Source: Planctomycetaceae bacterium
GTDB taxonomy: Bacteria > Planctomycetota > Planctomycetia > Pirellulales > Pirellulaceae
Reading direction: 5' to 3'
DNA: 32,000 nucleotides
NCBI GenBank assembly: GCA_005778405.1
Contig: SXOA01000175.1
Coordinates: 37,042-69,041, forward strand
This document shows positions 1,154 to 31,319 of the stretch, piece by piece. A model generated the notes under the pieces. It was not told the origin of the DNA, ran no database searches, and was given only the letters and a program-made list of their open reading frames with translations. The translations under genes were made by a program, and so were the position numbers. How positions within the stretch are numbered: the stretch's first letter is position 1; the number at the start of each line of letters is the position of its first letter.

Positions 1154-1233
1154 GGTACAGGGTGTGGACGAATTTGAAATCGCCGGATAGGCTGCCGGGA
1201 GTTGATTCTACAAGCTAGAGGTGCAGGTTTACC

Positions 1234-1578
1234 ATGAATAGCCAAGGGCCGCTGCCGGCCGATATCGATGTCCTCGCCGTAAGGAAGATGCAGAGCGCGG
1301 GAGAGAGGTTCGTTTTGCTCGACGTTCGCGAGCCGGAGGAGTTCACCACAGCCAGCATTGAAGGGACGCTGCAAATCCCGATGCGGACGGTCCCTTCTCG
1401 GCTGGTCGACCTGGAGCCGCACCGGGGAGAGCGGATTGTGGTCCATTGCCATCACGGCGGACGGAGTGCCCGCGTGGCCCAGTGGCTGCGGGATCAGGGC
1501 TTTGAGCAGGTTCAGAACATGGCCGGCGGCATTGACGCTTGGAGCCAATTGGTGGACCCGTCCGTGCCGCGGTATTAG
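1234..1578 (+). CDS. single-domain rhodanese-like sulfurtransferase
   Basis: 114-aa ORF starting at ATG. It has the rhodanese pattern LLDVREPEEF...VVHCHHGGRSARVAQWL, with an active-site Cys loop CHHGGRS, and ends in the typical GGIDAW. Confidence 0.9.
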   Translation: MNSQGPLPADIDVLAVRKMQSAGERFVLLDVREPEEFTTASIEGTLQIPMRTVPSRLVDLEPHRGERIVVHCHHGGRSARVAQWLRDQGFEQVQNMAGGIDAWSQLVDPSVPRY

Positions 1579-1591
1579 GTGAGGTACGCTT

Positions 1592-1691
1592 CCAGCCTGC
1601 CCAGTAGCCACCTGCCTCCCGCCTACCCCATTTCCCTTTTGCCCTCTAAAATCTCGCCAACTATTCGCTACTCGACTACTGGGCAGGCTGG
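1592..1691. repeat. perfect 16-bp inverted repeat (CCAGCCTGCCCAGTAG at 1592-1607, CTACTGGGCAGGCTGG at 1676-1691) around a 68-nt C/T-rich loop, between the rhodanese stop and the ndk start
   Basis: Read directly from the sequence. The arms are exact reverse complements. A partial third copy, GCAGGCTGCC, follows at 1691-1700. Confidence 0.8.
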
Positions 1692-1718
1692 CAGGCTGCC
1701 CCACTTACGGAGTCTCTC

Positions 1719-2180
1719 ATGGAACGTACTTTGGTGCTGCTCAAGCCGGACTGTGTGCAGCGGCGGCTGATGGGAAAGGTTCTGAGCCGTTTTGAGGAAA
1801 AGGGACTGAACGTCATCGGGCTGAAAATGCTGCAGGTCACGCCGCAATTGGCGAAGACGCATTACGCCGAGCACGTGCAGAAGCCGTTCTATCCGGGCCT
1901 GGAGAAATTCATCACGGCTTCCCCGATCGTGGCAATGGTGGTCGAAGGGCTGGAGGTCATCCGCGTCGTCCGCGATATGCTCGGTGCGACTAGCGGTCTG
2001 AAGGCGGCTGCGGGGACGATTCGCGGCGACTATTCCAGCAGCCGGCAGATGAATCTGGTACATGCCTCCGACGGCCCCGAGGCCGCCGCCAAGGAAATCG
2101 CCCTCTACTTCAAGCCGGAAGAGATTCTGCCGTACGAACCGACACTCATCGGCTGGTTCAAAGCGGACGACGAGAAGTAA
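1719..2180 (+). CDS. ndk: nucleoside-diphosphate kinase
   Basis: 153 aa. MERTLVLLKPD...GTIRGDY...NLVHASD is the NDK signature, including the catalytic His in NxxHxSD. A GGAG lies about 8 nt upstream of the ATG. Confidence 0.95.
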   Translation: MERTLVLLKPDCVQRRLMGKVLSRFEEKGLNVIGLKMLQVTPQLAKTHYAEHVQKPFYPGLEKFITASPIVAMVVEGLEVIRVVRDMLGATSGLKAAAGTIRGDYSSSRQMNLVHASDGPEAAAKEIALYFKPEEILPYEPTLIGWFKADDEK

Positions 2181-2207
2181 GAACGACTCTCCCTGCGGCA
2201 ATCCTGT

Positions 2208-3683
2208 TCACTCCATCTCCACCATGACCGCAGCCGTAATCACCGGGGCCACTGTTGGCTGGAGAGGGTTGTCGCCGTAGCTGACCGTCTGGCCTTGGTC
2301 GTTGATGCCCAGGAACAAGCACTGGGCACCGGCGGCAGGGACATGCAGTTTGCTCGCCAGCGGAACGAGCACCCGCTGTTCGAAGCCGGCGAGCTTCACC
2401 AGCAGGGCCCGCTTGCCGCCTCCTTCCACCTGCCGCTCCACGGTGCCGAAAAAGACCACGCCGGTGGCAGGGCGGGGAATGGCAATAGCGGCATACTCGT
2501 TGAGGATCGTGATCTGCCCGACGTCGTTCCATTTCTCCCGCCGCAACTGGGCGGTGACGATGTCTGCCTGCCGCGCTAATTCCGCCAGACGCTCGTTGAG
2601 CTCATCGCCAGCCGCGGCAACCTCCGGCTGGTTGGCAACCGTGACCATCCAGGCAATCTTTTGCAGCACGGCATAATCCTGGCCGCTGTTGGGCCTCCAG
2701 CGCATGGCCTGGGCCTGCTCATGAAACGATTGGAGCTGTTTGGCGGAAGTGTTCAGGACCAGCGATTTGCGGCGGGCTTCCTGAGTGGCATATGCTTCCA
2801 GGGGAGCAACCTCGGCGAGTTGCCGCTCTCGCAGTGAGATCAGCGCAGCAACATCGAGCGCATAGCCGAAGCCACCTTGTCGGTCGATCCAAGTATTGAT
2901 GCCGAGCACTTCCCCCCGTTCGTTCACGAGAGGCCCGCCGCTATTTCCTTCGGACAGGACCGCGGAATGTTGGATCCAAAGATGATCGGGACCGTTTCCC
3001 GCCAGCACGTGGATAAACCGCTGGGACAAGGCGGAAAGCTCTGATGTGCGAACGGTACGACTGACTCTACCGTCGCGGAGCGCGAACTCGACGCCACGCG
3101 GATGGCCGATTGCAAAGACATTCGCAAGCGGCTTTAGTCCTGGATCGGTTTTCAGGGTCGCCGCCGATAAACCTGCCGCATTTTGGAGTTGCAGAATCGC
3201 CAGGTCGTTTCCCGGATCAACCGCCGCATACCCGGCGATGGCAAAGATACGGCCATCCTGAAAGCGGGCCTGGGCGGAGGTGAGATCGGAAGAGAGGTGG
3301 TAGCTCGTGGCCACGAGACCGGAAGGGTCAATGACGATGCCCGCGCCGACACCCATCAGCCCGCCGGGGCCATCCGCCTGCAGCAGGACGACGGACTTCT
3401 GAGCTTCCAGAATCGCCGCATTAGGATGAGCAGGAACAGCCTCGATCGACTTGGAAGGGGTCTTCTTCTCAGCGACGGACGCCGGAACCAGCGGCACCTT
3501 TCGACGTGGCCAGAGCCCATCCCAGTCGATGTTTGCCCAGGCCACCAACCCCAGCATTAGAAGGACGACGAGCGAGCAGAAAGCGCGAATGCTCGTCCCC
3601 AAAAGCGTACGGCGGCGGCGGACCAGGGCAGGCTGTGCTGGCGGCGCACTGCGAACTTCCGTCGGCCTCAGCGGATTCGACAT
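2208..3683 (-). CDS. membrane-anchored trypsin-like (S1C/HtrA-like) serine protease with a C-terminal domain of about 200 aa that is not a PDZ domain
   Basis: 491 aa. The N-terminus has a basic stretch followed by a TM helix (RRRRTLLGTSIRAFCSLVVLLMLGLVAW). Catalytic triad context: ATSYHL, GNDLAILQL, GNSGGPLVNERGEVLGINTW. Confidence 0.85.
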   Translation of the reverse strand: MSNPLRPTEVRSAPPAQPALVRRRRTLLGTSIRAFCSLVVLLMLGLVAWANIDWDGLWPRRKVPLVPASVAEKKTPSKSIEAVPAHPNAAILEAQKSVVLLQADGPGGLMGVGAGIVIDPSGLVATSYHLSSDLTSAQARFQDGRIFAIAGYAAVDPGNDLAILQLQNAAGLSAATLKTDPGLKPLANVFAIGHPRGVEFALRDGRVSRTVRTSELSALSQRFIHVLAGNGPDHLWIQHSAVLSEGNSGGPLVNERGEVLGINTWIDRQGGFGYALDVAALISLRERQLAEVAPLEAYATQEARRKSLVLNTSAKQLQSFHEQAQAMRWRPNSGQDYAVLQKIAWMVTVANQPEVAAAGDELNERLAELARQADIVTAQLRREKWNDVGQITILNEYAAIAIPRPATGVVFFGTVERQVEGGGKRALLVKLAGFEQRVLVPLASKLHVPAAGAQCLFLGINDQGQTVSYGDNPLQPTVAPVITAAVMVEME

Positions 3684-3733
3684 GCCAGAGATTGCCGCCT
3701 GGATATCAAGGAGCGTTCGTCAATCGCCTGCGA

Positions 3734-4210
3734 TCACTCTGGCACGACAACTATCCGCCAGCCAGGCTCCGTCTTCGCCATGATAATTTGACTCGTCGTC
3801 GTGGAGCCACCGTCGCCAACGCACGTCTCCGTCATTTCCACGATGTCGCTGCGGTTGCGGAAAGGTTTTTTGTTTTGGAAAGTGGACGAGACGCCGCGGA
3901 AATTGGGAAAGCCTTGCTGTTTCATTTCAGCGCGGAATGCCAATTCCAAAACTTCGGTTGTTTGGGCAATAATTTCCTCGTCTTTCGCCAATTCAGGATT
4001 CAACTTCTCGAGCATCAACAGGGCTTCGGTGCGGAAATCCTTGCACTTCACTGCAGCGGCAATATCTCGTGCCCGATATGCTTCCTCCAGGCTGAGGACT
4101 GCCGCTTCTGGAGTCGTCAGATCGATTGGCTTGGTCATGGCGCCGCCACCCGAGCCGCAACCGGCCATGAGCACCAGCGAAACGAACACGACACACCTGC
4201 GCGCCAACAT
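3734..4210 (-). CDS. small lipoprotein of unknown function
   Basis: I use the internal ATG (complement of 4208-4210) of the 280-aa track ORF, giving MLARRCVVFVSLVLMAGCGSGGG. That is a signal peptide with an LMAGC lipobox. The longer ORF would overlap the DUF1552 gene by more than 300 nt. Confidence 0.65.
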   Translation of the reverse strand: MLARRCVVFVSLVLMAGCGSGGGAMTKPIDLTTPEAAVLSLEEAYRARDIAAAVKCKDFRTEALLMLEKLNPELAKDEEIIAQTTEVLELAFRAEMKQQGFPNFRGVSSTFQNKKPFRNRSDIVEMTETCVGDGGSTTTSQIIMAKTEPGWRIVVVPE

Positions 4211-5637: not shown

Positions 5638-7947
5638 CTATTTCTTTCCCGCCATCGCTTCCTCGGTCACAATGTCGGCTGTCAACTCCTGAATATTGAA
5701 CTCTTTTTTCGTGAAAGAGTCTCGCAGCCGGCGCAAGGTATCCGGCCCATAGGCTCGGATCGGTTGCTTGATCAAGTAGTGGAACAGCCGTTCGACCGTG
5801 GCGTTATGGACTTCCGGGCTGTTCGCCAGAAATCTTGCGAGCTCCGCGGGTCCGCTGAACTGCACGGTCTCGCCCGTGCGGGTCAGGTAGCTGCCGCTGG
5901 CATCGACCGGCTTGTCCTTCTCCTGCTCGCGATACCTTCCGATGGCGTCAAAGTTCTCCAGCGAGAACCCGATGGGGTTGATCATCGCGTGGCAAGTCTG
6001 GCAGGCCTGGGCTTTGGTCTGGAGGAGCACGCGCTCCCGCGTAGTCAGTCCGGCATGCAAATCGGGGGCTAGGGGCGCGACCGCTTCGGGTGGCGGACGG
6101 AGAGTGCGGCCCAGCAGGCTGCGGGAAACAAAAACTCCCCGGTGAATCGGCGAGCTGGTCGAGGTATAGGCGAACGCCGAGAGCAAATACGGATGGGTGA
6201 TCACGCCGGCCCGCTTGCCATCATCGAGCGTCATTTTCTGAAACGTTGAATCCTCGATCAAGTCGGTGCCATACAGTTTCGCCAGCCGGCCGTTGAGATA
6301 AATGGATTCGCCCAGCAGCAACTCGCGGAAGTCGGACCTCCCGCTCCAGACAACATCATCAAGCGTCATCTCCAGGCTGGTCCGCAAATCGGAAGCAACC
6401 TCCGGGCTGAATTCGGGAAAGGCCGCGGAATCCTTGGCGATGTCCGGCACCTGGTCAATCTTGAGTAGTTGCAAGAAGAATCCACCGAGCTTGGCCCGAG
6501 TCCGCAGATCAGGAAGCATCCGATGGACCTGCGCGGAAACTTGCTCCCGCGTGGAAAGTTGCCCGGCAGCAGCAGCCCCCAGCAGTTCTTCGTCCGGTGC
6601 CGAGTCCCACAGTCCGAAAGAAATCCGCGAAGCCACGTCGAAAGCATCCGGCTGGGGCGTGCCGACTTCACGGTAGAGGAACCGCGGCGATTTGAAAATA
6701 AACAGCAGCACTCGCTTCATCGCCAGCTCCAGCTCGCCGGCGAGTTCAAACTGCCGATCCACAAACAGCCGCCGCTGCTCGGGGGAGAGCGGCCGGCGAA
6801 AGGCCCGCTCTGCCAGTTTGTAGCAGAACTCCCGCAGCCTAGGCCCGGCATCTTGCTCATCGACTCTCACGTTAGCGAGTTCCCGCAAATGCTCCAGGAA
6901 AAAACTGGCGGCCTCCAAAGCTCCTACGGTCGTCGCCTGGTCCCAAGCCTTGGAGATCGACGAGCCCCGCTCATAGCCGATGCTTCGATCATCGGGCGGA
7001 AAGTGGGTTTCGCAGACGTAAACCTCTGGCGCTCCCCGTCTCGACAAACAGCGGGCCGGAATCAATTCTTGGGCATGGCTGGGGGTCTTCCACTCCAGAG
7101 CAATTGATGCCTTCCGTGCCGGCGGCGGCTTCTTTTGGTTCTTCGAGTCATCCACTCCTTGCTTGGCCTTGCTGAACTCCAGCTTCAGCGGATAGACCCG
7201 ACCACCGAGCAGCCGAATCGAGCCGCGATACTCGCTGTCATTCCCCGATTTGACCCACTTATCAATCAGCGGCTGGTCAGCCTCGCTACGGGCGTTGCTG
7301 TTCACCCAGAGCCGCGTGGCATGCTCGGTTTTGACGACAAATTCGTACACGCCGCTTTCCGGAGCGAAAACCGAACCCTCCCAGCGGATCGAAAACTCGT
7401 GGGCCTCCATCTTCTCCGGCTCGGGGCTCGCTTCGCCGAAGTCAAATTGCACCACGGGATCAATGCGGTCAATCGCCCGATCTCCCCCTCGCGTCCGCCG
7501 CCCTTTGTAGTATTCGCCGTGCAGTCCCCCTGGTTCTTCCCAGCCGCTCGGCGGGCGAAAGCTACCGATGAGGTCGGTCATCACATTCTGGTACTGCCGC
7601 ACGGTCAGGCGGGAAAGCTCCACGCGGGCCGGCTTGATGCGTGCTTGGGCGATGGGGGAATAGAACGTCTCATGAATGTACGCCGCGACTCTCTTGGCAT
7701 CTTCGCCAACACACTTCTCCGGCTCCCCTTCCGGCATCGTTTTATCGATCACCTTCGTGAGCTGCTCGATCGACAAATCGCCGGCCAGCACCTTCGGCTG
7801 GTCCTTGGTTCCCTCGCCGGCCATGCCGTGACAAGTGACACACAGCTCGCGGTAAATCTGCTCGCCAGTGCGCTCGGCCGCAATAGCCGACGAAGTAGCG
7901 AGCAACCAAGCCGCCGCGAGAGTGAGATGGAACTGCGCGAGCTTCAT
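5638..7947 (-). CDS. DUF1592/DUF1588/DUF1585-family protein with an N-terminal cytochrome c motif and a PA14-like insert
   Basis: 769 aa with a signal peptide. Heme motif CVTCHG near the N-terminus; GLHGEYYKG (PA14-like); C-terminal CQTCHAMINPIGFSLENFDAIGRYR, typical of DUF1588/DUF1585. Confidence 0.8.
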   Translation of the reverse strand: MKLAQFHLTLAAAWLLATSSAIAAERTGEQIYRELCVTCHGMAGEGTKDQPKVLAGDLSIEQLTKVIDKTMPEGEPEKCVGEDAKRVAAYIHETFYSPIAQARIKPARVELSRLTVRQYQNVMTDLIGSFRPPSGWEEPGGLHGEYYKGRRTRGGDRAIDRIDPVVQFDFGEASPEPEKMEAHEFSIRWEGSVFAPESGVYEFVVKTEHATRLWVNSNARSEADQPLIDKWVKSGNDSEYRGSIRLLGGRVYPLKLEFSKAKQGVDDSKNQKKPPPARKASIALEWKTPSHAQELIPARCLSRRGAPEVYVCETHFPPDDRSIGYERGSSISKAWDQATTVGALEAASFFLEHLRELANVRVDEQDAGPRLREFCYKLAERAFRRPLSPEQRRLFVDRQFELAGELELAMKRVLLFIFKSPRFLYREVGTPQPDAFDVASRISFGLWDSAPDEELLGAAAAGQLSTREQVSAQVHRMLPDLRTRAKLGGFFLQLLKIDQVPDIAKDSAAFPEFSPEVASDLRTSLEMTLDDVVWSGRSDFRELLLGESIYLNGRLAKLYGTDLIEDSTFQKMTLDDGKRAGVITHPYLLSAFAYTSTSSPIHRGVFVSRSLLGRTLRPPPEAVAPLAPDLHAGLTTRERVLLQTKAQACQTCHAMINPIGFSLENFDAIGRYREQEKDKPVDASGSYLTRTGETVQFSGPAELARFLANSPEVHNATVERLFHYLIKQPIRAYGPDTLRRLRDSFTKKEFNIQELTADIVTEEAMAGKK

Positions 7948-8072
7948 GGCAAAGCACGGCTGGAAATGGGGCAGTGAATTCCGCCGGCAGGAAGGAAATC
8001 CGGCAGTCGCAGGGCTGAGTGAAAGCCCTAATCATCATAGGCGAAATGCGAGGAAAATCCAAGAACCAGCCG

Positions 8073-8855
8073 TCACTCCATGCTGACGATCGAACCCGAA
8101 GCCATCTCTTCCCGCCCGCTCTCCGTCTGCAAGATCAGCGAGCCGCCGTCATCGATTCCCAGGCAGCGCCCGGTGATGAGCCGCGGGCCGGAGGAGACCT
8201 GAAGCGTCCGGCCATCCAGGATGCAGCGGCGGCGGAATTCACCGGCCTGCGCGGCGAAACCAGCCAGGCCAAGTTCCAGCCAGCGGGTTTGGAGTGCTAC
8301 CAACAGGTGCAGCAAGACACCCGTCATATCGAGCGGCCGCTGGAGGTAGTCGATTAAGGAAACGGCTGCGGCTTGGATTTCCTGCGGAGCATCTGTGAGC
8401 GAGTTGTTGATGTTCATTCCAATTCCGACAACGATGCGACCCCGCGCTGCGGAGGGGGACTCAATCAAAATGCCACCAAGCTTGCGGCCGGCGCAGTATA
8501 CGTCGTTGGGCCACTTAACGCCAAAATCGCCGCCGGGGGCGATCTGCTCCAGGGCTTCGCAAACCGCCAGGCCGGTGGACAGCGAAAGTACCGGCCAATT
8601 CTCCCCAGCAATGCCAAGATGCTGGGCATCGATGAGCAGCGAGAATGTCAGCGATCCCGTTGCCGCCCACCATTGGTTGCTGCCGCGTCCCCTCCCGCCA
8701 GTTTGCTGGTCGGCCAGGATGAGGAGCGGGAGGGTGAGCTGGTCTTGACGGGACAGTTCCAGCGCGCGGTCGCTGGTCGAGCCGATGCGCTCATGATGCT
8801 CGAGCGCCGCAACATACGGCGAAGAGCGGAGTCGGGGCAAATCAAAAGGTGGCAT
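8073..8855 (-). CDS. birA: biotin--[acetyl-CoA-carboxylase] ligase, class I (no N-terminal HTH)
   Basis: 260 aa. QQTGGRGRGSNQWWAATGSLTFSLL carries the GRGRxGRxW biotin/ATP loop, and KWPNDVY is also present. The length is consistent with a ligase-only form. Confidence 0.9.
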   Translation of the reverse strand: MPPFDLPRLRSSPYVAALEHHERIGSTSDRALELSRQDQLTLPLLILADQQTGGRGRGSNQWWAATGSLTFSLLIDAQHLGIAGENWPVLSLSTGLAVCEALEQIAPGGDFGVKWPNDVYCAGRKLGGILIESPSAARGRIVVGIGMNINNSLTDAPQEIQAAAVSLIDYLQRPLDMTGVLLHLLVALQTRWLELGLAGFAAQAGEFRRRCILDGRTLQVSSGPRLITGRCLGIDDGGSLILQTESGREEMASGSIVSME

Positions 8856-8886
8856 CGAGAGGATTGTCCGGGGGGTGAAAGTAAAC

Positions 8887-10089
8887 CTACCCGAACCACT
8901 CAGCTTCCATCATCAAGCGCATCCAGGCGCGGTGCTCACCTTCCATAGCGTGCTCGCCGCGGCGCAGGATAGCGAGCTTCGCTTCTGGAGACTTTGCCTT
9001 GTCCAACTCGTCGAGAAGAAGCTCCAGATGATGGGCCATCGATTCAAATCGCAAGGAATTGCGCCCAAACTCAAAGGCACCCCGAATCGTGCGGATCCCG
9101 GCCGCGAACACGGGAATAATGGCCGCCCCCAGGGCCAAAACAATTGCCCAATCAGGATCCTTTTTGTCGTCCGGTTGTTTGGCTTTAGTCGAAGCATCAC
9201 TAGAAATTTCGCCACCAATTTTTGCGGCCTCTTTCCCCAGCTCATGGGAAGTTTTCTCGGCAACAGCGGTCGCGTGGGATTTCCCCATGATGTGAATCGC
9301 GGCATGGGTTAGGGCGCAAATGACGCTGGCGAAAAACAATCCCGGCCCCACGTAACGGACAATCGATTCCGTGCGGTGCAATTGGTGTCCGCGATCGTGA
9401 AAATAGCGCCGCTGGGGGACCAGCCGCTTCTGGCGGAAATAATCGACAAGCTCCCCCGCCAGATTCGCATCCAGCTTGGCTTCCGGCGTTTCCAACACCG
9501 GCAGGATTTCCTTTTTCCAATGGATCCATTCCTTGATGACGTCCCGGTTGGCTCCGTGGATCCCCGAAATGTACTTGGAGAGATGCTCTGCTCGCTCTTC
9601 CTCGCTGGCCGCAAGCCAACGAGCCGCGTCATGCAGGAAGCGGAATTTGAGCTTTCGGTATTGCTCGGCCTTGAATCGATGCTCCCGCCAGCGGTGGTCC
9701 AGGCTGTGGATAGCGCCGAGTAGGACCGTAATGGCAGCCGCGATAAGGCAGATGACTTCCAGATTCAACAGGGAATTGGTCTCCACTTTGCCAAAGGGAA
9801 GTTGCAGAATGGCCAAAACGACGGCTGTTGTGCCGGCGGCCGCCGCTACAAACACCGCTACCTTGTGCCGCTCTTGCAGCCGGATCGCTTCCTGGTCGTA
9901 ATACCAGCAGCCGCTGGATTCCTTATGGTCCTTCTCCCAAACTTCGGTGTGCCAGGACTTGAGAAGGGGCGCGAGCTCTGGCCACTTCGCCAATTCCGCT
10001 GGCGAGTCGTACAACTCACTTTCGGCATAGACTGGCTGGCTGGGCTGTTGATCTGCCGGTGAGTTTGAGGATGCCGGGGAAGTAGTCAT
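8887..10089 (-). CDS. 4-TM membrane protein, probably tandem SLATT/DUF4231-like 2TM modules
   Basis: 400 aa. Module 1: CWYYDQEAIRLQERHK, then TM (VAVFVAAAAGTTAVVLAILQL), TM (LLNLEVICLIAAAITVLLGAI), then DHRWREHRFKAEQYRKLKF. Module 2: QRRYFHDRGHQLHRTESIVRY, then TM (VGPGLFFASVICALTHAAIHI), a charged loop, TM (WAIVLALGAAIIPVFAAGI), then RGAFEFGRNSLRFESMAHHL. The family call rests on my recollection of the pattern only. Confidence 0.5.
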   Translation of the reverse strand: MTTSPASSNSPADQQPSQPVYAESELYDSPAELAKWPELAPLLKSWHTEVWEKDHKESSGCWYYDQEAIRLQERHKVAVFVAAAAGTTAVVLAILQLPFGKVETNSLLNLEVICLIAAAITVLLGAIHSLDHRWREHRFKAEQYRKLKFRFLHDAARWLAASEEERAEHLSKYISGIHGANRDVIKEWIHWKKEILPVLETPEAKLDANLAGELVDYFRQKRLVPQRRYFHDRGHQLHRTESIVRYVGPGLFFASVICALTHAAIHIMGKSHATAVAEKTSHELGKEAAKIGGEISSDASTKAKQPDDKKDPDWAIVLALGAAIIPVFAAGIRTIRGAFEFGRNSLRFESMAHHLELLLDELDKAKSPEAKLAILRRGEHAMEGEHRAWMRLMMEAEWFG

Positions 10090-10123
10090 AGTAGTAACAT
10101 CATTCCAGCGAGATCAGCGTGGA

Positions 10124-10405
10124 TTACTTCTCGATACGATAACCCATGGCCAGCATGGCACGAAGTGTGTCACGCACCACGCGTCGGTCATATTCCCGCT
10201 CCGATTCCGGCAATTCCTCGTAAGGCCGCAGGCAGGGATGCTCCTTCGTCGCATCATTCCGCGCGGGCCCCAACCTCCAGCCATCTTTGAGTCGCTGGTC
10301 CCACCAGACATCGTGAACATTGGCCGCCAGTTTCTCAATCAGGACAGCCAGGTCAGGCGATAATGGAATGTGCGTGGTGTCCAAAGGCTGAGGGCGGTGA
10401 GTCAT
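10124..10405 (-). CDS. stand-alone RyR (ryanodine-receptor repeat) domain protein
   Basis: 93 aa. LIEKLAANVHDVWWDQRLKDGWRLGPARNDATKEHPCLRPYEELPESEREYDRRVVRDTLRAMLAMGYRIEK matches the bacterial RyR-domain consensus (HxxW...GWxxG...K.HPcLvpYeeLpe.ek.yDR...l...GY.I). Confidence 0.85.
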   Translation of the reverse strand: MTHRPQPLDTTHIPLSPDLAVLIEKLAANVHDVWWDQRLKDGWRLGPARNDATKEHPCLRPYEELPESEREYDRRVVRDTLRAMLAMGYRIEK

Positions 10406-10459
10406 GGTTGCTTGGGAACGGGATTTCGATGAGGAGGAAACGGGGCGAAGGAGAACGGT

Positions 10460-11614
10460 TTACTCGACAACAGCCAGGTTGTCTCGATGAATGACCTCTT
10501 GATACGGACACATTCCCAGCACCTGGGCGATCTTGGACGACTTCAATCCTATGATGCGGGTCACGTCCTCCGACGAATAATTCGACAGGCCGCGAGCCAC
10601 GACGGAACCCTTTTCGTCACAGAGCGAAACAAGGTCTCCTTTGCGGAATTCTCCTTTGCACTTCGCAATGCCAGCCGCGAGCAGACTCTTTCCTTGCTCG
10701 ACAATCGCCCTCCGAGCGCCGCTGTCGAGATGAATTTCCCCTTTGGCCGGGGCACTGTAACTAAGCCAGCGTTTGTAGTGGCTCACTCCTTTGCCGCGGG
10801 CCTGGAAGAGAGTACCGATTTCTTCTCCGGCCATGATGCGGGTCAGCACGTCGTCCCGCCGGCCGCTGGCGACAATCATATTTTCGCCGGCGGAGGTCAC
10901 GATGCGTGCTGCGGCCAGTTTGCTGGCCATGCCTCCCTTGGAAAGCCCCGTCTTCTTGTCTCGCACGTAACTCAGGATTGTGTCGTCGATTTTGTTGACG
11001 GTGGTGACAAGTTTTGACGAAGCAAGTGACGGATCGCCGTCGTACAGCCCTTCGATGTCCGACAGAATGACGAGCAGCGGGGCGCGAATGAGATTGGTGA
11101 CGAGCGCCGCCAGGCGGTCGTTGTCACCGAAAGTGGTTTGCAGTTCCTCGACACTGACAGTATCGTTTTCGTTGATGACCGGGACGGCGCCGAATTCCAG
11201 GATGCTGGCGAGCGTATTTCGCACGTTGAGATAGCGGGTCCGATCGCTGACATCGTCTGCGGTGAGCAGCACCTGGGCGGCGCGGCGGCCATGTTTCACA
11301 AAGGTCCGATCGTAAGTTTGAATCAGATGAGCCTGACCGACTGCCGCCACCGCTTGCAGTTTTGCCAAATCGGTCGGGCGGCTGGTGAGCTTGAGTAGGC
11401 TCATCCCCGCTCCGACGGCACCCGAGCTGACGAGCACGACCTTCCTTCCCGCCGCGGCAATGGCGTGAATCTCTTCCGCCAGTCGTTCGATGCGGGGGTA
11501 GTTGAGCGTGCCGTCCGCGAGTGTCAGGACGCGCGTGCCAACCTTCACGACGACGGTGTGAGCCGCGGCGGTGATAACAAGTCGCTGTTCGTTGATAGTC
11601 ACTGCGTCAGCCAT
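10460..11614 (-). CDS. proB: glutamate 5-kinase with a C-terminal PUA domain
   Basis: I use the internal ATG (complement of 11612-11614) of the 552-aa track ORF: MADAVTINEQRLVITAAAHTVVVKVGTRVLT...VSSGAVGAG...INENDTVS...FGDNDRLAA... The C-terminal PUA-like segment is GEIHLDSGARRAI...GDLVSLCDEKGSVVARGLSNYSS. The upstream extension is Arg/Cys/His-rich and overlaps the next gene. Confidence 0.92.
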   Translation of the reverse strand: MADAVTINEQRLVITAAAHTVVVKVGTRVLTLADGTLNYPRIERLAEEIHAIAAAGRKVVLVSSGAVGAGMSLLKLTSRPTDLAKLQAVAAVGQAHLIQTYDRTFVKHGRRAAQVLLTADDVSDRTRYLNVRNTLASILEFGAVPVINENDTVSVEELQTTFGDNDRLAALVTNLIRAPLLVILSDIEGLYDGDPSLASSKLVTTVNKIDDTILSYVRDKKTGLSKGGMASKLAAARIVTSAGENMIVASGRRDDVLTRIMAGEEIGTLFQARGKGVSHYKRWLSYSAPAKGEIHLDSGARRAIVEQGKSLLAAGIAKCKGEFRKGDLVSLCDEKGSVVARGLSNYSSEDVTRIIGLKSSKIAQVLGMCPYQEVIHRDNLAVVE

Positions 11615-11640
11615 GAACTGATTGTATCGCCCTAAAGGGA

Positions 11641-12966
11641 TTAGGAATTGGAGTAGGGATTGACTTGCAGTTTCTTGAGCAGTTCGCCGCGGAGGCGATC
11701 GATGACGGACTGTTTGTCGGTCTGCGACAAGATTCGCTGCACAACCGCTTTGGGACTTTCCGTTCCCCACGAAGCGCCGTGCTCGAAGTAATAGCGTGCC
11801 GCTTCCCCCACGATGTACGAGCCGTAGCCGGCGGCGGCACCCTGCGGCAGGGCGGTGACGAGCGTCGATTTGCCGAAGGTAAAAGCCTTGAGGGCGCTGA
11901 CGACAACGGTGCTCGCCACAACCCCCACGGTCATCCAGCCGGCGGCAGTGGCGATGGCGATGGCCAGCTTGCGAGCCTGAGCCCATTTCATTTCCAGCCC
12001 ATAAACGGCCGCCAGTGTCAAAATCATCGCCGCGTCGATGGCAATGCCGCCGAAGATGTCGGCGAAAGCAAAGGGATTCAGGCCGACGGCGACCGCCTTC
12101 GTCGAAGCATAGCCCCACACGACCTGCATCGCCCGGCGTTCCCGAAGCTGAATCCGGAGCGAAGCAATCCGATCGCTCTTGTCGGCCGCATAGAGCGCCG
12201 CGTTGAGGGCGATAAGAGCCAGCCCTTCCTTGTCGAGCATTTCCAGGATAGCGGCCTTAAGTTCGGACACATCGGGCGGCGGCTTCTTCCACTCACTCCG
12301 CTCTTTGCCGTCGGCGGACTGAATGACGTACTCTCTTTCGCGGGGATCGGCGGCAGCGGTGACGACTTGCTCCGCCGGCACAATGTCTTGAAGTCGTTCT
12401 TTGCCAAGAACTTCTAGGAGTCGCGCTCGCTGCTCGCGGCTATAGAGGTCGATCTTATTGAGGACGACGATGATCGGCTTGTGGAATGCGGCGAGCTCGA
12501 CGAGGTTAGCATGTTCGGTGTCGTTCAGGTCGGAGTCAGTGCAGAACAAAATCAGGTCCGACCGCTCCGCTGCTTCTCTCGCCATCTGGCCGCGAGCCGC
12601 GCCCCCGACTTCGTTGATTCCCGGCGTATCGACCAGTACCACCTGGCTCTCCCCCAGCCCCGGCAGCCGATAGCCGGTCCCCTGCCAGTTGACGTGCCAA
12701 ACCTCTTTGGTCCAGCCTCCTTGCACATCGACCGCAGCGACCGCCTCGCCGACGAGTGCATTGATGAGGGCACTCTTGCCCGTGCTGATCTCGCCGAAGA
12801 CCACAATCTCCACCCGGCCGCTTTGCAGCTTGTCGTGCATGTCCCGCAGGCCGGCCAGCTCGCTCCGGAGTCTCTCCTTCTCCGCCGGCGTGCAGCGGCG
12901 GTACTTGTCGAGCGTCTGCTCGACGGCGGCCAAGGCCTGCTGGTAGTGGTCGTCGGTCTTTTCCAT
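11641..12966 (-). CDS. GTPase (MMR_HSR1/Era-like G domain) fused to a C-terminal DUF697-type membrane domain
   Basis: G1 GEISTGKS, G3 DTPG, G4 NKID. The C-terminal hydrophobic region NPFAFADIFGGIAIDAAMILTLAAVYGL is DUF697-like. The track ORF begins at a TTG (12990). I prefer the first ATG at 12966 (MEKTDDHYQQ), but the start is uncertain. Confidence 0.75.
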   Translation of the reverse strand: MEKTDDHYQQALAAVEQTLDKYRRCTPAEKERLRSELAGLRDMHDKLQSGRVEIVVFGEISTGKSALINALVGEAVAAVDVQGGWTKEVWHVNWQGTGYRLPGLGESQVVLVDTPGINEVGGAARGQMAREAAERSDLILFCTDSDLNDTEHANLVELAAFHKPIIVVLNKIDLYSREQRARLLEVLGKERLQDIVPAEQVVTAAADPREREYVIQSADGKERSEWKKPPPDVSELKAAILEMLDKEGLALIALNAALYAADKSDRIASLRIQLRERRAMQVVWGYASTKAVAVGLNPFAFADIFGGIAIDAAMILTLAAVYGLEMKWAQARKLAIAIATAAGWMTVGVVASTVVVSALKAFTFGKSTLVTALPQGAAAGYGSYIVGEAARYYFEHGASWGTESPKAVVQRILSQTDKQSVIDRLRGELLKKLQVNPYSNS

Positions 12967-13019
12967 TTGTCCCGTATTTCGTACCTGCAATTCGTCGCCG
13001 GCGCAATAGTCTTGTGCCG

Positions 13020-13922
13020 TTATTGCATTCGCACTCCGCTGTTATCAATGGCGTATGGCACAATCCGCTCATCGCAGGCACTGCCGCGGTGCTTGGCGAC
13101 ATACAGCGCACGGGTCAGACGGTCGCCGCTGCGGACTTTGCCCATGTAGATGATCGTGTTGGCGTTGGAGAGGACGTCTCCCTCGTCCAGCCGCCGGCTG
13201 ATGAGGTCGTCGAGCATGGTCTCGTGTGAAGTGTAAAGGAGCAGGCAGCCAATGCGGGCAGGGTCATAAAGATGCCTGGAGATTTCGGCGGCGTTCCGCA
13301 GATAGGCTTCGCGGAACAAATCCCGAGCGACCCACTCGGGGTCTTTTCGCAAAATCTGGTGATAGAGGTACTCGAACAAATTGAACTGGATCGATTCTCC
13401 CGGCCGGTCGGTCGGCTCGATGCCGTCGATGACCACCCGCTCGCAGCCCCGGACGAAGTTGCCATACAAAAAGGCAATCGCCGCCCGCAGCCGGGCGTTG
13501 AGTTGGGCCTGCCAGGTGTGCCAGTCGTCCCAGTCCAGATCTCGCTTCGTCACCCGGCGGCCGGCGTAATCGAAGATGTGCAGGTACTCCCCCGGCTCAC
13601 TGCTAAAGAAGCTGTCGAGCTGCACCTGCTTGTCGGCATCGGCGACCTTGAGCTTCCAGTCAAAAATTCGCCTCGCATATTCCGCGTGGCTTTGCGAATC
13701 CCCGCGGCTGCTCATGTCGAAGATGATGCCGGGGCGGGAAGTGGGGGCTGGGGACTGGGGGCTAGGGACTGGGGAAGAAAGAATTCCCGCTCGCGCAAAC
13801 TGCACCCCGAACTGCGTCTTGCCAATCCCCGTCGCCCCAACGACCGCCGTCAACGTACCGGGAATCAGCCCGCCGCCAAGCAGCTCATCCAGCCCGGAAA
13901 CACCTGTCAACAGCCGTTGCAT
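13020..13922 (-). CDS. KaiC/RAD55/RecA-superfamily ATPase-like protein (single domain)
   Basis: 300 aa. LTGVSGLDELLGGGLIPGTLTAVVGATGIGKTQFGVQFA contains Walker A, and CERVVIDGIE is Walker B-like. The C-terminus ALYVAKHRGSACDERIVPYAI is typical of KaiC-like domains. A Pro/Ser-rich insert, SSPVPSPQSPAPTS, follows helix 1. Confidence 0.75.
   Translation of the reverse strand: MQRLLTGVSGLDELLGGGLIPGTLTAVVGATGIGKTQFGVQFARAGILSSPVPSPQSPAPTSRPGIIFDMSSRGDSQSHAEYARRIFDWKLKVADADKQVQLDSFFSSEPGEYLHIFDYAGRRVTKRDLDWDDWHTWQAQLNARLRAAIAFLYGNFVRGCERVVIDGIEPTDRPGESIQFNLFEYLYHQILRKDPEWVARDLFREAYLRNAAEISRHLYDPARIGCLLLYTSHETMLDDLISRRLDEGDVLSNANTIIYMGKVRSGDRLTRALYVAKHRGSACDERIVPYAIDNSGVRMQ
13731..13774 (+). other. 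G-quadruplex-prone tract: seven G3-5 runs separated by 1-4 nt
   Basis: GGGGCGGGAAGTGGGGGCTGGGGACTGGGGGCTAGGGACTGGGG, read directly on the + strand. This is the template strand of the KaiC-like gene, and it encodes the PS-rich insert. Confidence 0.6.
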
Positions 13923-28703: not shown

Positions 28704-28736
28704 GTTAGGGTGGTGTCACGGCGGAACCGCCCGCGA

Positions 28737-31163: not shown

Positions 31164-31319
31164 GGCGGGGCTCCGAGAGAAACGCTGAGAGAGGGCAACC
31201 AAATCAGCCGTTAGCGTACAACAGCGGCAACAAGATTGCGACAAGAGGGAGAGGGGATAGAATGAGTAGGTGCAGAATGCTTCCCACCAAGATGCCTGAC
31301 ACCCACCCAGCAGCCCTCC

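What the first reader, a model, noticed from the sequence alone, without database searches (positions are those of the whole stretch)
8887..10405. Stand-alone RyR-domain protein paired with a probable tandem-SLATT 4-TM protein
Seen in sequence:
- A 93-aa ORF (10124-10405, minus strand) is essentially one bacterial RyR repeat: HDVWWDQRLKDGWRLGP...KEHPCLRPYEELPESEREYDRRVV...MGYRIEK.
- 34 nt downstream on the same strand is a 400-aa protein containing the same arrangement twice: a polar helix, two TM helices, then a basic helix. The first copy is WYYDQEAIRLQERHK / 2 TM / DHRWREHRFKAEQYRKLKF. The second is QRRYFHDRGHQLHR / TM, charged loop, TM / RGAFEFGRNSLRF.

I read these as SLATT/DUF4231-type modules. 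Established knowledge: SLATT 2TM modules were proposed as membrane-perturbing effectors of nucleotide-signalling conflict systems (Burroughs et al., NAR 2015). They normally sit beside SMODS, SLOG or TIR genes. None of those partners is present here; the only dedicated neighbour is the RyR domain, whose bacterial function is essentially unknown.

Inference: this could be a two-gene module of a soluble sensor or regulator plus a membrane pore or effector. To my knowledge a RyR-SLATT pairing has not been characterised. It is embedded between proB and birA with short spacers, so it is probably co-transcribed with them.
Basis: partly seen in the sequence, partly recalled or inferred. Interest (0 to 1): 0.7.

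Follow-up and report, generated by a model that had tools for sequence, protein, structure and literature searches.

The report
RyR-domain sensor paired with SLATT pore
A tiny protein resembling the nucleotide-binding repeat of animal ryanodine receptors sits next to a four-helix membrane 'SLATT' protein; the two are linked or fused across many bacterial and archaeal phyla, usually beside TIR immune-signalling enzymes, so they look like the receptor and pore of an undescribed Thoeris-like defence module, of which this window holds a copy without a TIR.

Summary
The 93-aa ORF (10124-10405, minus) is a full-length RyR domain (Pfam E=4.6e-32). It keeps the four residues that phage RyR proteins use to bind or cleave cyclic ADP-ribose signals. 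The 400-aa ORF 34 nt downstream (8887-10089, minus) has four TM helices and two SLATT modules.

The pairing is not local chance. In 70 species-level genomes from at least 10 bacterial phyla plus archaea that encode this SLATT family:
- a RyR domain lies directly upstream on the same strand in 38;
- it is fused into the same ORF in 9;
- it lies elsewhere within 6 kb in 12.

TIR-domain genes are present in 33 of the 70 loci. Other loci carry RelA/SpoT-SLOG-RyR or cyclase fusions.

Best reading: a RyR dimer senses a TIR-made, NAD-derived nucleotide and controls a tandem-SLATT membrane effector. This would be a three-part variant of the two-gene TIR+SLATT type VII Thoeris. No held paper describes it.

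The window's copy belongs to a vertically inherited Pirellulaceae clade. That clade has no TIR nearby and sits next to birA, so its trigger is unknown. The linkage to proB is not conserved.

Ligand binding, pore activity and defence are all inferred, not shown.

The parts
10124..10405 (-). Stand-alone RyR-domain protein, 93 aa. Predicted soluble homodimeric nucleotide binder.
   Evidence: Pfam RyR E=4.6e-32, full profile coverage. Matches animal RyR R12 repeats and bacterial 3NRT/6UAG. Ungapped alignment with phage RyDEP and its homologs.
10313..10315 (-). Codon for H31, equivalent to RyDEP H75 (catalytic base, ribose contact) and RyR Tad H129.
   Evidence: Alignment A2. Residue roles. Invariant in every linked RyR domain examined.
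10304..10306 (-). Codon for W34, equivalent to RyDEP W78 and RyR Tad W132 (stacks on the adenine).
   Evidence: Alignment A2. Invariant in every linked RyR domain examined.
10238..10240 (-). Codon for H56, equivalent to RyDEP H100 and RyR Tad H154 (phosphate contact).
   Evidence: Alignment A2. Kept in 36 of 37 stand-alone and 9 of 9 SLATT-fused RyR partners; replaced by Ser in 4 of 8 SLOG/RelA-fused ones.
10187..10189 (-). Codon for D73, equivalent to RyDEP D117 (catalytic acid) and RyR Tad D171. Animal RyR2 repeat 1 has Asn at this position.
   Evidence: Alignment A2, and the RyR2 alignment.
10090..10123 (-). 34-nt spacer between the RyR stop and the SLATT start.
   Evidence: Sequence. In relatives the spacing from the end of the RyR domain to the start of the SLATT alignment is 34-37 nt, and in 9 lineages the two are fused.
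8887..10089 (-). 400-aa tandem-SLATT membrane protein with 4 TM helices. Predicted effector.
   Evidence: Pfam and NCBIfam SLATT hits above cut-off. AF2 model all-helical, pLDDT 79.7, pTM 0.75. About 400 family clusters at 50% identity with E<=1e-30.
9529..9903 (-). First SLATT module (aa 63-187): polar helix, TM1 (aa 77-97, nt 9799-9861), TM2 (aa 110-130, nt 9700-9762), basic helix.
   Evidence: SLATT_3 30.2 bits and DUF4231 25.0 bits on the N-half alone. Hydropathy.
9040..9447 (-). Second SLATT module (about aa 215-350): polar helix, TM3 (aa 247-267, nt 9289-9351), variable low-confidence loop (aa 268-313), TM4 (aa 314-332, nt 9094-9150), basic helix RGAFEFGRN.
   Evidence: SLATT_1 25.6 bits on the C-half alone. 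52 of 59 family C-halves hit SLATT_1. Hydropathy. The loop has pLDDT below 50.
8890..8937 (-). C-terminal family signature EHRAWMRLMMEAEWFG (aa 385-400). Several of its positions are invariant across phyla.
   Evidence: Invariant columns in A1, A3 and A4. It served as one of the two search patterns that recovered the 70 loci.
8073..8855 (-). birA (biotin-protein ligase). Conserved downstream neighbour in Pirellulaceae only; context, not a demonstrated functional part.
   Evidence: TIGR00121 E=1.3e-42. Synteny in L001, L003-L006 and L074. Absent from the module's neighbourhood in other phyla.

Best explanation
The two genes form a sensor-effector cassette of the NAD-derived nucleotide (TIR/Thoeris-type) conflict-signalling world.

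Proposed mechanism, step by step:
1. The 93-aa RyR protein is one RyR repeat. Like its solved bacterial and phage homologs, it should form a homodimer with two pockets for adenine-containing ADP-ribose derivatives, that is cADPR isomers or a related TIR product.
2. Ligand binding by the RyR dimer is transmitted to the cytoplasmic face of the partner protein. That partner is a four-TM protein built from two SLATT modules, with both termini in the cytoplasm.
3. The SLATT protein then oligomerises or opens and breaches the membrane, which arrests or kills the cell.

In most lineages the signal comes from an adjacent TIR protein that carries its own variable sensor domain.

The window's copy belongs to a Pirellulaceae clade that has kept only the RyR-SLATT pair. 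The pair is inherited vertically next to birA. It therefore must answer either to a TIR encoded elsewhere or to a cellular adenine nucleotide.

Shown here: domain identities, conservation of the ligand residues, four-TM topology, phylum-wide linkage, gene fusions and the TIR association.
Inferred, not shown: the ligand, the direction of control (activation rather than inhibition), pore formation and a defence role.
For: Domain identity:
- RyR E=4.6e-32; SLATT_1, SLATT_3 and DUF4231 above cut-off.
- The second SLATT copy is supported in 52 of 59 family members.

Linkage across 70 species-level genomes from at least 10 bacterial phyla plus archaea:
- RyR directly upstream on the same strand in 38.
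- RyR fused into one ORF with SLATT in 9.
- RyR downstream on the same strand in 5, and elsewhere in the flank in 7.
- About 20 further fusion clusters exist in the protein database. JGI auto-named one of them 'RyR domain/SMODS and SLOG-associating 2TM effector domain 1'.

Signalling context:
- TIR_2 proteins, fused to varied sensor domains (PsbP, Zn-ribbon, DUF4440, FGE-sulfatase, Ig, TPR, SIR2), occur in 33 of 70 loci and in 8 of the 9 fusion loci.
- TIR_2 is the top family among genes immediately flanking the module: 20 of 98 genes, with no SMODS in the top 25.
- Other loci carry RelA_SpoT-TPR-SLOG-RyR proteins or TPR-S-cyclase proteins, some of which also contain RyR.

Ligand site:
- Window H31, W34, H56 and D73 align without gaps to RyDEP H75, W78, H100 and D117, and to RyR Tad H129, W132, H154 and D171.
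- Those residues bind or cleave 2'cADPR, 3'cADPR and cADPR.
- The tetrad is kept in 36 of 37 stand-alone and 9 of 9 SLATT-fused partners.

Precedent: type VII Thoeris is a TIR plus a SLATT effector (ThsH) that is activated by cADPR.

The N-terminal position of RyR in the fusions matches the usual sensor-then-TM-effector layout and the predicted cytoplasmic N-terminus.
Against: - The window has no signal generator. No TIR, SLOG or RelA/SpoT was found in the 32 kb. None lies within 6-10 kb in its Pirellulaceae relatives.
- The surrounding genes are housekeeping genes (proB, birA, gltX, ctpA, SulP), not a defence island.
- PADLOC gives only a weak RTasSLATT hit (E=0.033) for the SLATT protein and nothing for the RyR protein.
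- In type VII Thoeris the SLATT protein appears to sense cADPR without any RyR domain, so RyR need not be the receptor.
- The characterised RyR-domain proteins are signal sponges or hydrolases (inhibitors). The catalytic His/Asp dyad is intact here, which fits a negative regulator equally well.
- In SLOG/RelA-fused versions the tetrad is partly lost, so in some systems RyR may act as an adaptor rather than a ligand binder.
- The AF2 fusion model shows only a flexible linker between RyR and SLATT (pLDDT below 50 at 84-114; pTM 0.65). No contact could be evaluated.
- Nothing was tested biochemically.
Confidence: 0.55

Rival explanations
1. RyR acts as a built-in brake, not as the receptor. The SLATT protein senses the TIR signal directly, as proposed for ThsH. 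The RyR dimer buffers or hydrolyses basal signal, as a host-encoded sponge or glycosidase would, to set an activation threshold and prevent self-killing.
For: - All characterised RyR-domain proteins are sponges or a glycosidase for cADPR isomers.
- The H31/D73 catalytic dyad is intact in the window protein and in nearly all partners.
- The ThsH SLATT effector responds to cADPR without RyR.
Against: - Repeated fusion of RyR to the N-terminus of the effector itself (9 of 70 loci plus about 20 database clusters) is the typical layout of a cis sensor domain, not of a signal-degrading enzyme.
- RyR is also fused to other sensor or generator proteins (SLOG, RelA/SpoT, cyclase).
- The orphan clades keep RyR even though no TIR is nearby, where a brake would have nothing to buffer.
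Confidence: 0.2
2. In the TIR-less clades (Pirellulaceae, including this window, and Acidobacteriaceae) the pair has been domesticated. It would be a nucleotide-gated membrane channel reporting cellular adenine-nucleotide or NAD status (ATP, ADPR, NAD+), with a physiological rather than antiviral role.
For: - The orphan modules form two vertically inherited clades with conserved housekeeping synteny. In Pirellulaceae that is RyR-SLATT-birA-PSD cytochrome-HXXSHH in five genomes.
- There is no TIR within 6-10 kb.
- The animal R12 domain binds ATP analogues and has been proposed as a metabolic sensor.
Against: - The pair diverges faster (SLATT 49-74%, RyR 69-73% identity) than its housekeeping neighbours (79-94%), which is more typical of conflict genes.
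- The nearest relatives of the window clade (L010, L052) are TIR-linked.
- Defence sensors and effectors can be served by generators encoded elsewhere in the genome.
- No evidence bears on the physiological ligand.
Confidence: 0.15
3. RyR is mainly a protein-protein adaptor. It docks upstream sensors or generators (SLOG, RelA/SpoT, cyclase, TIR) onto the SLATT cytoplasmic face, and its nucleotide pocket is not essential.
For: - RyR sits at the C-terminus of RelA_SpoT-TPR-SLOG proteins of about 850 aa and of LSDAT(SLOG) proteins adjacent to SLATT.
- In those fusions H56 is replaced by Ser in 4 of 8 and D73 by Glu in 3 of 8.
Against: The stand-alone and SLATT-fused forms, which include the window protein, keep the full ligand tetrad almost without exception: 36 of 37 and 9 of 9. 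That argues the pocket is under selection in this architecture.
Confidence: 0.08
4. The adjacency is coincidental, or one of the two ORFs is not a real gene.
For: None beyond the short length of the RyR ORF.
Against: - RyR E=4.6e-32.
- Same-strand adjacency or fusion in 47 of 70 genomes across phyla and domains.
- Both proteins have many database homologs.
Confidence: 0.01

Closest known systems
Type VII Thoeris (TIR ThsB + SLATT effector ThsH; bioRxiv 10.64898/2025.12.03.692087)
   Same: - A SLATT-domain membrane effector sits genetically next to a TIR-domain protein in about half of the family's loci.
- It is expected to be triggered by a TIR-made ADPR-derived nucleotide. ThsH is activated by canonical cADPR.
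   Different: - Type VII is described as a two-gene system whose SLATT protein is thought to bind the signal between its own protomers. That paper and its held supplements do not mention a RyR domain.
- Here the effector is a tandem (two-copy) SLATT protein with four TM helices and a distinctive C-terminal EHRxWxRLMxEAEWFG motif, and it comes with an obligatory RyR domain, either separate or fused.
- The window copy has no TIR at all.
- Homology between ThsH and this family beyond the shared Pfam clan could not be tested, because no ThsH sequences were found in the supplement passages I searched (two of the four files are truncated as stored).
Phage RyDEP / RyR Tad anti-Thoeris proteins (bioRxiv 10.64898/2026.05.28.727677 and 10.64898/2026.06.04.730250)
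   Same: - Same Pfam family (PF02026).
- Same ligand residues at the same spacing: H31/W34/H56/D73 correspond to H75/W78/H100/D117.
- A single-repeat protein, expected to dimerise.
   Different: - Those proteins are phage-encoded inhibitors that carry an extra N-terminal region of about 45-70 aa or an additional domain.
- This one is a minimal 93-aa chromosomal protein, genetically locked to a membrane effector and inherited vertically with housekeeping genes.
- It is about 24-29% identical to the phage proteins, against 41% to animal RyR2 repeat 1.
- The predicted role is host-side sensor or regulator, not evasion.
Animal ryanodine receptor Repeat12 (R12) domain
   Same: - Strong sequence similarity over the whole repeat (70 bits, 41% identity to RyR2 863-949).
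- Conserved H, W and H ligand residues.
- The domain is attached to a membrane channel or pore.
   Different: - In animals two repeats lie in tandem within a protein of about 5000 aa; here there is a single repeat.
- The catalytic-acid position is Asn in RyR2 repeat 1 but Asp here.
- The associated membrane protein (SLATT) is unrelated to the RyR channel domain.
SLATT effectors of CBASS and DRT systems
   Same: The SLATT 2-TM module serves as the presumed membrane-perturbing effector of a conflict system.
   Different: - No SMODS/CD-NTase appeared among the top flanking families.
- The only PADLOC hit is a weak RTasSLATT match (E=0.033).
- Reverse transcriptases were not searched for specifically.
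- Partner domains here are RyR and TIR.
- Burroughs 2015 could not be opened, so whether it noted RyR is unverified.

Membership tests
RyR domain (Pfam PF02026) | Profile match above the curated cut-off over the whole domain | tested here: met
   110.5 bits against 27.4, profile positions 2-91 of 91. 70 bits to RyR2 repeat 1.
RyDEP / RyR Tad (phage cADPR-isomer sponge or glycosidase) | Ligand and catalytic residues H, W, H, D at conserved spacing | tested here: met
   H31/W34/H56/D73 align without gaps to H75/W78/H100/D117.
RyDEP / RyR Tad (phage cADPR-isomer sponge or glycosidase) | Encoded by a phage, in an anti-defence context | tested here: not met
   Chromosomal, flanked by proB, birA, gltX and similar genes. 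Vertically inherited synteny in Pirellulaceae.
RyDEP / RyR Tad (phage cADPR-isomer sponge or glycosidase) | Binds or hydrolyses 2'cADPR, 3'cADPR or cADPR | not testable with these tools
   Needs biochemistry (EMSA, SPR, TLC), as.
SLATT (Pfam SLATT_1/SLATT_3/DUF4231; NCBIfam NF033634) | Profile match above the curated cut-off | tested here: met
   SLATT_1 33.9 vs 26.3, SLATT_3 29.2 vs 26.3, DUF4231 25.4 vs 24.7, NF033634 49.1 vs 41.
SLATT (Pfam SLATT_1/SLATT_3/DUF4231; NCBIfam NF033634) | Two-TM hairpin flanked by polar or basic helices, present twice here | tested here: met
   Four TM helices with basic flanks. All-helical AF2 model. The C-half is SLATT_1-positive in 52 of 59 members. However, N-half versus C-half self-comparison was not significant.
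SLATT (Pfam SLATT_1/SLATT_3/DUF4231; NCBIfam NF033634) | Genomic association with nucleotide-signal generators or sensors (SMODS, SLOG, TIR) | tested here: inconclusive
   Window: none in 32 kb. Family: TIR in 33 of 70 loci, SLOG in 9, RelA/SpoT in 5; SMODS not among the top flanking families.
Thoeris (TIR-signalling defence), type VII-like | Adjacent TIR-domain (ThsB-like) signal generator | tested here: not met
   Not met for the window or its Pirellulaceae clade. Met for 33 of 70 family loci.
Thoeris (TIR-signalling defence), type VII-like | Effector activated by a TIR-derived nucleotide; protection against phage | not testable with these tools
   Needs phage challenge and ligand-supplementation assays like those described.
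Thoeris (TIR-signalling defence), type VII-like | Location in defence islands | not tested
   Only PADLOC scans of four window proteins were run: a weak RTasSLATT hit for SLATT and LeoBC/LeoA-like hits for the nearby GTPase. The island context of the 70 loci was not assessed.

The most novel reading that the evidence does not exclude
Host-encoded RyR domains would be the original cellular receptors for TIR-made cyclic ADP-ribose signals, wired directly to a membrane pore. That would make them a prokaryotic forerunner of the 'cADPR opens a ryanodine receptor' logic of animal cells. Phage RyDEP and RyR Tad would then be stolen copies of this host sensor. In the TIR-less Pirellulaceae and Acidobacteriaceae clades, including this window, the RyR-SLATT pair would have been domesticated into a stand-alone channel gated by an adenine or NAD-derived nucleotide.
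Probability: 0.2. Interest if true: 0.85.

Novelty: new variant of a known kind. Interest (0 to 1): 0.68.

Why it matters
- Cellular role for RyR. The prokaryotic RyR domain has so far been characterised only in phage anti-defence proteins. This finding would give it a host-side role.
- New Thoeris architecture. It would add a three-part design (a TIR generator, a RyR receptor or regulator, and a tandem-SLATT pore) to the Thoeris repertoire. The family has about 400 sequence clusters and is concentrated in under-studied phyla: Planctomycetota, Acidobacteriota, Verrucomicrobiota and methanogenic or Methanoperedens archaea.
- Origin of the phage proteins. It suggests where the phage RyR sponges and glycosidases came from.
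- Animal RyR and cADPR. The window protein is 41% identical to the animal R12 repeat and is only 93 aa long. It is a tractable model for the long-debated question of whether the R12 domain of ryanodine receptors recognises cADPR-type ligands.
- Orphan modules. The TIR-less, vertically inherited copies pose a separate question: what triggers a potentially lethal pore that sits in a housekeeping operon?

Tried and rejected
- Internal duplication by self-comparison. hhalign of the N-half against the C-half of alignment A1 gave E=0.21 and aligned only TM2 with TM4. It was uninformative, so I replaced it with a Pfam scan of 59 C-halves.
- Solved structures of the SLATT protein. A profile search of PDB sequences found nothing. 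Foldseek with the AF2 model gave only generic long-helix similarity to ABC-exporter TM domains (best E=0.059, TM about 0.2). Rejected as meaningless.
- PADLOC. No model matched the RyR protein, and the SLATT protein gave only a weak RTasSLATT hit (E=0.033).
- Docking of RyR on SLATT. The AF2 model of a natural fusion has confident domains, but the linker is low-confidence and no PAE or coordinates were available. No conclusion on contacts.
- Promoter and terminator scan of 7900-13100. Counts were no higher than in shuffled sequence, so it says nothing about operon structure.
- Literature. Burroughs et al. 2015 could not be opened by DOI or by a PMC id I recalled from memory, which may itself be wrong. 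Its treatment of RyR, LSDAT and SLATT therefore remains unverified. Whole-word searches for SLATT+RyR returned no papers. SLATT+ryanodine returned one paper, which mentions ryanodine receptors only in its discussion. The eLife 2021 paper mentions ryanodine only in its reference list.
- proB as part of the module. Rejected, because proB is absent upstream of the pair in all five related genomes.
- Chance adjacency. Rejected.
Full report
**1. What is in the window**

The 93-aa ORF at 10124-10405 is a complete RyR domain.
- Pfam PF02026: E=4.6e-32, 110.5 bits against a cut-off of 27.4, profile positions 2-91 of 91.
- It aligns over its whole length with each of the four RyR repeats of animal ryanodine receptors. 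The best match is repeat 1 of the R12 domain (70 bits; 41% identity in alignment A2).
- It also matches the crystallised Bacteroides 'putative ryanodine receptor' proteins 3NRT, 4N05 and 6UAG (E about 1e-24 to 1e-25).

The 400-aa ORF at 8887-10089 starts 34 nt downstream.
- It exceeds the curated thresholds of Pfam SLATT_1, SLATT_3 and DUF4231, and of NCBIfam SLATT_1.
- Hydropathy gives four TM helices (about aa 77-97, 110-130, 247-267 and 314-332), with Lys/Arg-rich segments after TM2 and TM4. This implies that both termini and the long central helical region are cytoplasmic.
- An AF2 model built on 18 homologs is all-helical and reasonably confident (pLDDT 79.7, pTM 0.75). Its only poorly predicted parts are the N-terminal 19 residues and the variable TM3-TM4 loop.

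**2. Is the membrane protein really two SLATT modules?**

- Scanned separately, the N-half hits SLATT_3 (30.2 bits) and DUF4231. The C-half hits SLATT_1 at 25.6 bits (E=1.4e-5), just below the cut-off.
- A direct profile-profile comparison of the two halves was not significant.
- I therefore scanned the C-halves of 59 divergent family members one by one. 52 of them hit SLATT_1 (best E=1.4e-9) and no other family recurred.
- The tandem-SLATT description stands, with the caveat that the two copies are too diverged to recognise each other.
- The family has a nearly invariant C-terminal signature, EHRxWxRLMxEAEWFG.
- It has no relative of known structure by sequence or by fold.

**3. Is the pairing more than local chance?**

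Close homologs of the SLATT protein are few (25 clusters). A pattern scan of one genome per species with the family alignment returned 70 loci. They come from Planctomycetota, Acidobacteriota, Verrucomicrobiota, Chloroflexota, Vulcanimicrobiota, Dormibacterota, Nitrospirota, Gemmatimonadota, Myxococcota, Bacteroidota and archaea (Methanomicrobia, Halobacteriota, Methanoperedens). Identity to the window protein is 25-74%.

I searched all six-frame ORFs of these loci with a local RyR HMM. I corrected for over-extended start codons by using the position where the SLATT alignment begins. The result:

| Position of the RyR domain | Loci (of 70) |
|---|---|
| Directly upstream, same strand | 38 |
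| Fused in the same ORF as SLATT | 9 |
| Downstream, same strand | 5 |
| Elsewhere in the 6-kb flank | 7 |
| Not found (two of these loci are cut by contig ends) | 11 |

A database search seeded with one fusion found about 20 more fusion clusters carrying both PF02026 and a SLATT family. JGI's pipeline had named one of them 'RyR domain/SMODS and SLOG-associating 2TM effector domain 1'.

Gene fusion together with conserved order across bacterial phyla and archaea is strong evidence of a functional, probably physical, partnership.

The whole family comprises about 400 clusters at 50% identity with E<=1e-30.

**4. What else travels with the pair**

Clustering all flanking ORFs revealed one further recurrent family, present in 28 loci.
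- Pfam identifies it as TIR_2, fused to a changing set of putative sensor domains: PsbP, zinc ribbon, DUF4440/SnoaL, FGE-sulfatase, Ig, TPR and SIR2.
- A local TIR HMM raises the count to 33 of 70 loci, including 8 of the 9 fusion loci.
- An unbiased Pfam census covered the 98 genes immediately flanking the module in 51 non-redundant loci. TIR_2 ranks first (20 genes), followed by TPR and STAND-type NTPase domains, DUF4062 and nucleotide cyclases. SMODS/CD-NTase is not in the top 25.

Other loci show different arrangements.
- In five loci by the local RelA_SpoT HMM (L028, L031, L034, L041 and L068), the RyR domain sits at the C-terminus of proteins of about 850 aa built as RelA_SpoT + TPR + LSDAT(SLOG) + RyR. 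Pfam confirmed that architecture in the four I scanned.
- In an archaeal locus (L002/L014) the order is LSDAT-RyR, tandem SLATT, TIR-PsbP.
- Two RyR-less loci (L060, L067) instead have a TPR-S + MAP3K_TRAF_bd + nucleotide cyclase protein directly upstream (Pfam-checked for L067 only). Database relatives of that protein carry a RyR domain too.

The family is therefore embedded in nucleotide-signalling conflict systems, predominantly TIR-based ones.

**5. What the RyR domain probably does**

Two 2026 preprints give the prokaryotic RyR domain a biochemical function for the first time.
[quoted passage not shown] Most of its tested homologs are nanomolar sponges.
- 'RyR Tad' from a Pectobacterium phage is a dimer that binds 3'cADPR (KD 43 nM), 2'cADPR and canonical cADPR.
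- The key residues are RyDEP H75 (base), W78 (adenine stack), H100 (phosphates) and D117 (acid). In RyR Tad they are H129/W132, K147/H154 and K170/D171.

Using the sequences in the RyDEP supplement, the window protein aligns without gaps across this region. H31, W34, H56 and D73 match the four RyDEP residues, and R49 matches K147 of RyR Tad.

Conservation of the H-W-H-D tetrad across the RyR domains linked to this SLATT family:

| RyR architecture | Tetrad intact |
|---|---|
| Stand-alone | 36 of 37 |
| Fused to SLATT | 9 of 9 |
| Fused to SLOG or RelA/SpoT | 4 of 8 (four have Ser at H56; three of those also have Glu at D73) |

The pocket is therefore under selection in the architecture found in this window.

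A single repeat is half of the pseudo-symmetric R12 fold. The phage proteins are dimers. The bacterial entries 3NRT and 6UAG hold several chains, but I did not check their assemblies. A homodimer is therefore expected here, though it is inferred.

**6. Mechanism proposed, and its uncertainty**

A 2025 preprint defined type VII Thoeris as a TIR plus a SLATT effector (ThsH) that is switched on by canonical cADPR and is thought to oligomerise in the membrane.

The present family looks like a three-part elaboration of that system. A TIR with a variable sensor domain makes an ADPR-derived signal. The RyR dimer binds it. The tandem-SLATT protein executes membrane damage.

I favour RyR as the activating receptor, for two reasons.
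- It is repeatedly fused to the N-terminus of the effector, which is the canonical place for sensor domains in CBASS, Thoeris and Pycsar effectors.
- That terminus is predicted to be cytoplasmic.

The fusion AF2 model shows two confident bodies joined by a low-confidence linker of about 30 residues. This is compatible with RyR-RyR dimerisation bringing two SLATT proteins together, but it proves nothing.

The main rival is that RyR is a host-encoded buffer or hydrolase that sets the activation threshold while SLATT senses the signal itself, as proposed for ThsH. The intact His/Asp dyad fits that reading equally well. A third option, RyR as a docking adaptor, suits the SLOG-fused forms better than this one.

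None of ligand binding, pore formation or defence has been tested.

**7. What is special about this window's copy**

- The window contains no TIR, SLOG or RelA/SpoT gene in 32 kb (local HMMs; Pfam scans of the neighbouring genes and of ten further large ORFs). Its surroundings are housekeeping genes: proB, birA, gltX, a CtpA-type protease and SulP.
- Five Pirellulaceae genomes share the block RyR-SLATT-birA-PSD cytochrome-HXXSHH. Upstream of RyR they have an intergenic region of about 730 nt and a divergent Ser/Thr kinase plus ECF sigma factor, not proB. proB is therefore a lineage-specific neighbour, and the pair probably has its own promoter in the relatives. Read-through into birA (31-nt spacer) is possible but unproven, and the consensus promoter/terminator scan was uninformative.
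- Within this clade the pair is less conserved (SLATT 49-74%, RyR 69-73% identity) than its neighbours (79-94%).
- In a neighbour-joining tree of the family, TIR-less modules form two vertically inherited clades: the Pirellulaceae clade, which includes the window, and a large Acidobacteriaceae clade. Most other branches are TIR- or RelA/SpoT-linked. These include L010 and L052, the closest relatives of the window clade.
- The simplest reading is that an ancestral TIR-linked cassette lost or unlinked its generator. Whether the pair now listens to a distant TIR or to a cellular nucleotide cannot be decided from sequence.

**8. Novelty**

- No paper in the held library contains both 'SLATT' and 'RyR'. 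The single paper with 'SLATT' and 'ryanodine' mentions ryanodine receptors only in its discussion of animal cADPR signalling, and its supplements contain neither RyR nor PF02026.
- Both RyR-domain papers concern phage proteins only.
- The domain combination is visible in automatic annotations. The founding SLATT paper (Burroughs et al. 2015) could not be read, so an earlier passing mention cannot be excluded.
- I rate this as a new variant of a known kind: a Thoeris-like, TIR-associated SLATT system with a RyR-domain partner. The window holds an orphan member of it.
- It is interesting because it links a newly deorphanised phage anti-defence fold to a host effector module. It also provides a minimal bacterial model, 41% identical to the animal R12 repeat, for the debated link between cADPR and ryanodine receptors.

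Noticed in passing
window 16826-23365 (-): A giant 2179-aa ORF combining a Ser/Thr protein kinase domain, three FGE-sulfatase-like stretches, three 3-keto-disaccharide hydrolase stretches and LRRs. The FGE-sulfatase domain is also the sensor-like domain fused to the TIR protein next to the RyR-SLATT fusion in L025.
   Followed up: no
window 11641-12990 (-) and 13020-13922 (-): A GTPase with a C-terminal DUF697 membrane domain (slr1306 family). It gives PADLOC LeoBC and LeoA hits (E=5.8e-20 and 7.9e-13). Next to it is a KaiC/RecA-like ATPase. Both lie just upstream of proB on the same strand. This may be an unrelated dynamin-like module, and any relation to the RyR-SLATT pair is unknown.
   Followed up: no
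window 10460-12118 (-): The mechanical proB ORF (552 aa from a GTG) overlaps the GTPase gene. The TIGR01027 match starts at residue 32 of a 396-aa trimmed version, so the real start is probably near 11560-11650.
   Followed up: partly
window 28710-31133 (+) and 28737-31355 (-): Two very long ORFs (807 and 872 aa) overlap on opposite strands, and neither has a Pfam hit at E<=1e-4. Which one is the real gene is unresolved.
   Followed up: no
L002 / L014 (uncultured Methanomicrobia archaeon, CAYHCZ010000038.1) 128-4204: An archaeal three-gene array: an LSDAT_prok(SLOG)+RyR fusion (487 aa), a tandem SLATT protein (394 aa), then TIR+PsbP (344 aa). In this fusion the RyR pocket has Ser at the H56 position and Glu at the D73 position.
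   Followed up: partly
L031 3270-5822, L028 6931-9456, L034 7419-9974, L041 2360-5023, L068 5594-8257: Proteins of about 850 aa next to the SLATT gene in archaea, Nitrospirota, Verrucomicrobiota and Planctomycetota. Pfam gives RelA_SpoT (alarmone-synthetase-like) + LSDAT(SLOG) + RyR in the four scanned (TPR detected in L031 only); L068 is included on local HMM evidence only. This suggests a non-TIR signal generator wired to the same effector.
   Followed up: partly
P0134-P0139 (database proteins); L060 3715-5712 and L067 3693-5699: Proteins of about 750 aa combining RyR with TPR-S and, in most clusters, MAP3K_TRAF_bd and/or an adenylate/guanylate cyclase domain (all four only in P0134 and P0138). 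RyR-less versions of the same protein sit directly upstream of the SLATT gene in two Acidobacteriota loci (Pfam-checked for L067 only).
   Followed up: no
L052 7514-9754 (Pirellula sp. MAG): A 746-aa protein with a TrkA_N (NAD-binding, K+-transport-associated) domain and a weak C-terminal RyR domain, downstream of the SLATT gene. A TIR gene lies upstream. This locus and L010 are the window clade's nearest relatives in the tree.
   Followed up: no
L048 3913-5424 (-) and L050 3943-5403 (-): TIR-containing genes flank RyR-SLATT in these Acidobacteriota loci; Pfam on the L048 protein shows a SIR2_2 + TIR_2 fusion (L050 rests on the local TIR HMM only). L048 carries a second TIR gene at 7504-8865 (+), so several effector or generator types may share one locus.
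   Followed up: no
L074 11407-11634 (Pirellulaceae MAG JBPCKT010000025.1): A small Unstab_antitox (antitoxin-like) gene lies between the PSD cytochrome and HXXSHH genes in this relative. I did not check whether the window has an equivalent small ORF.
   Followed up: no
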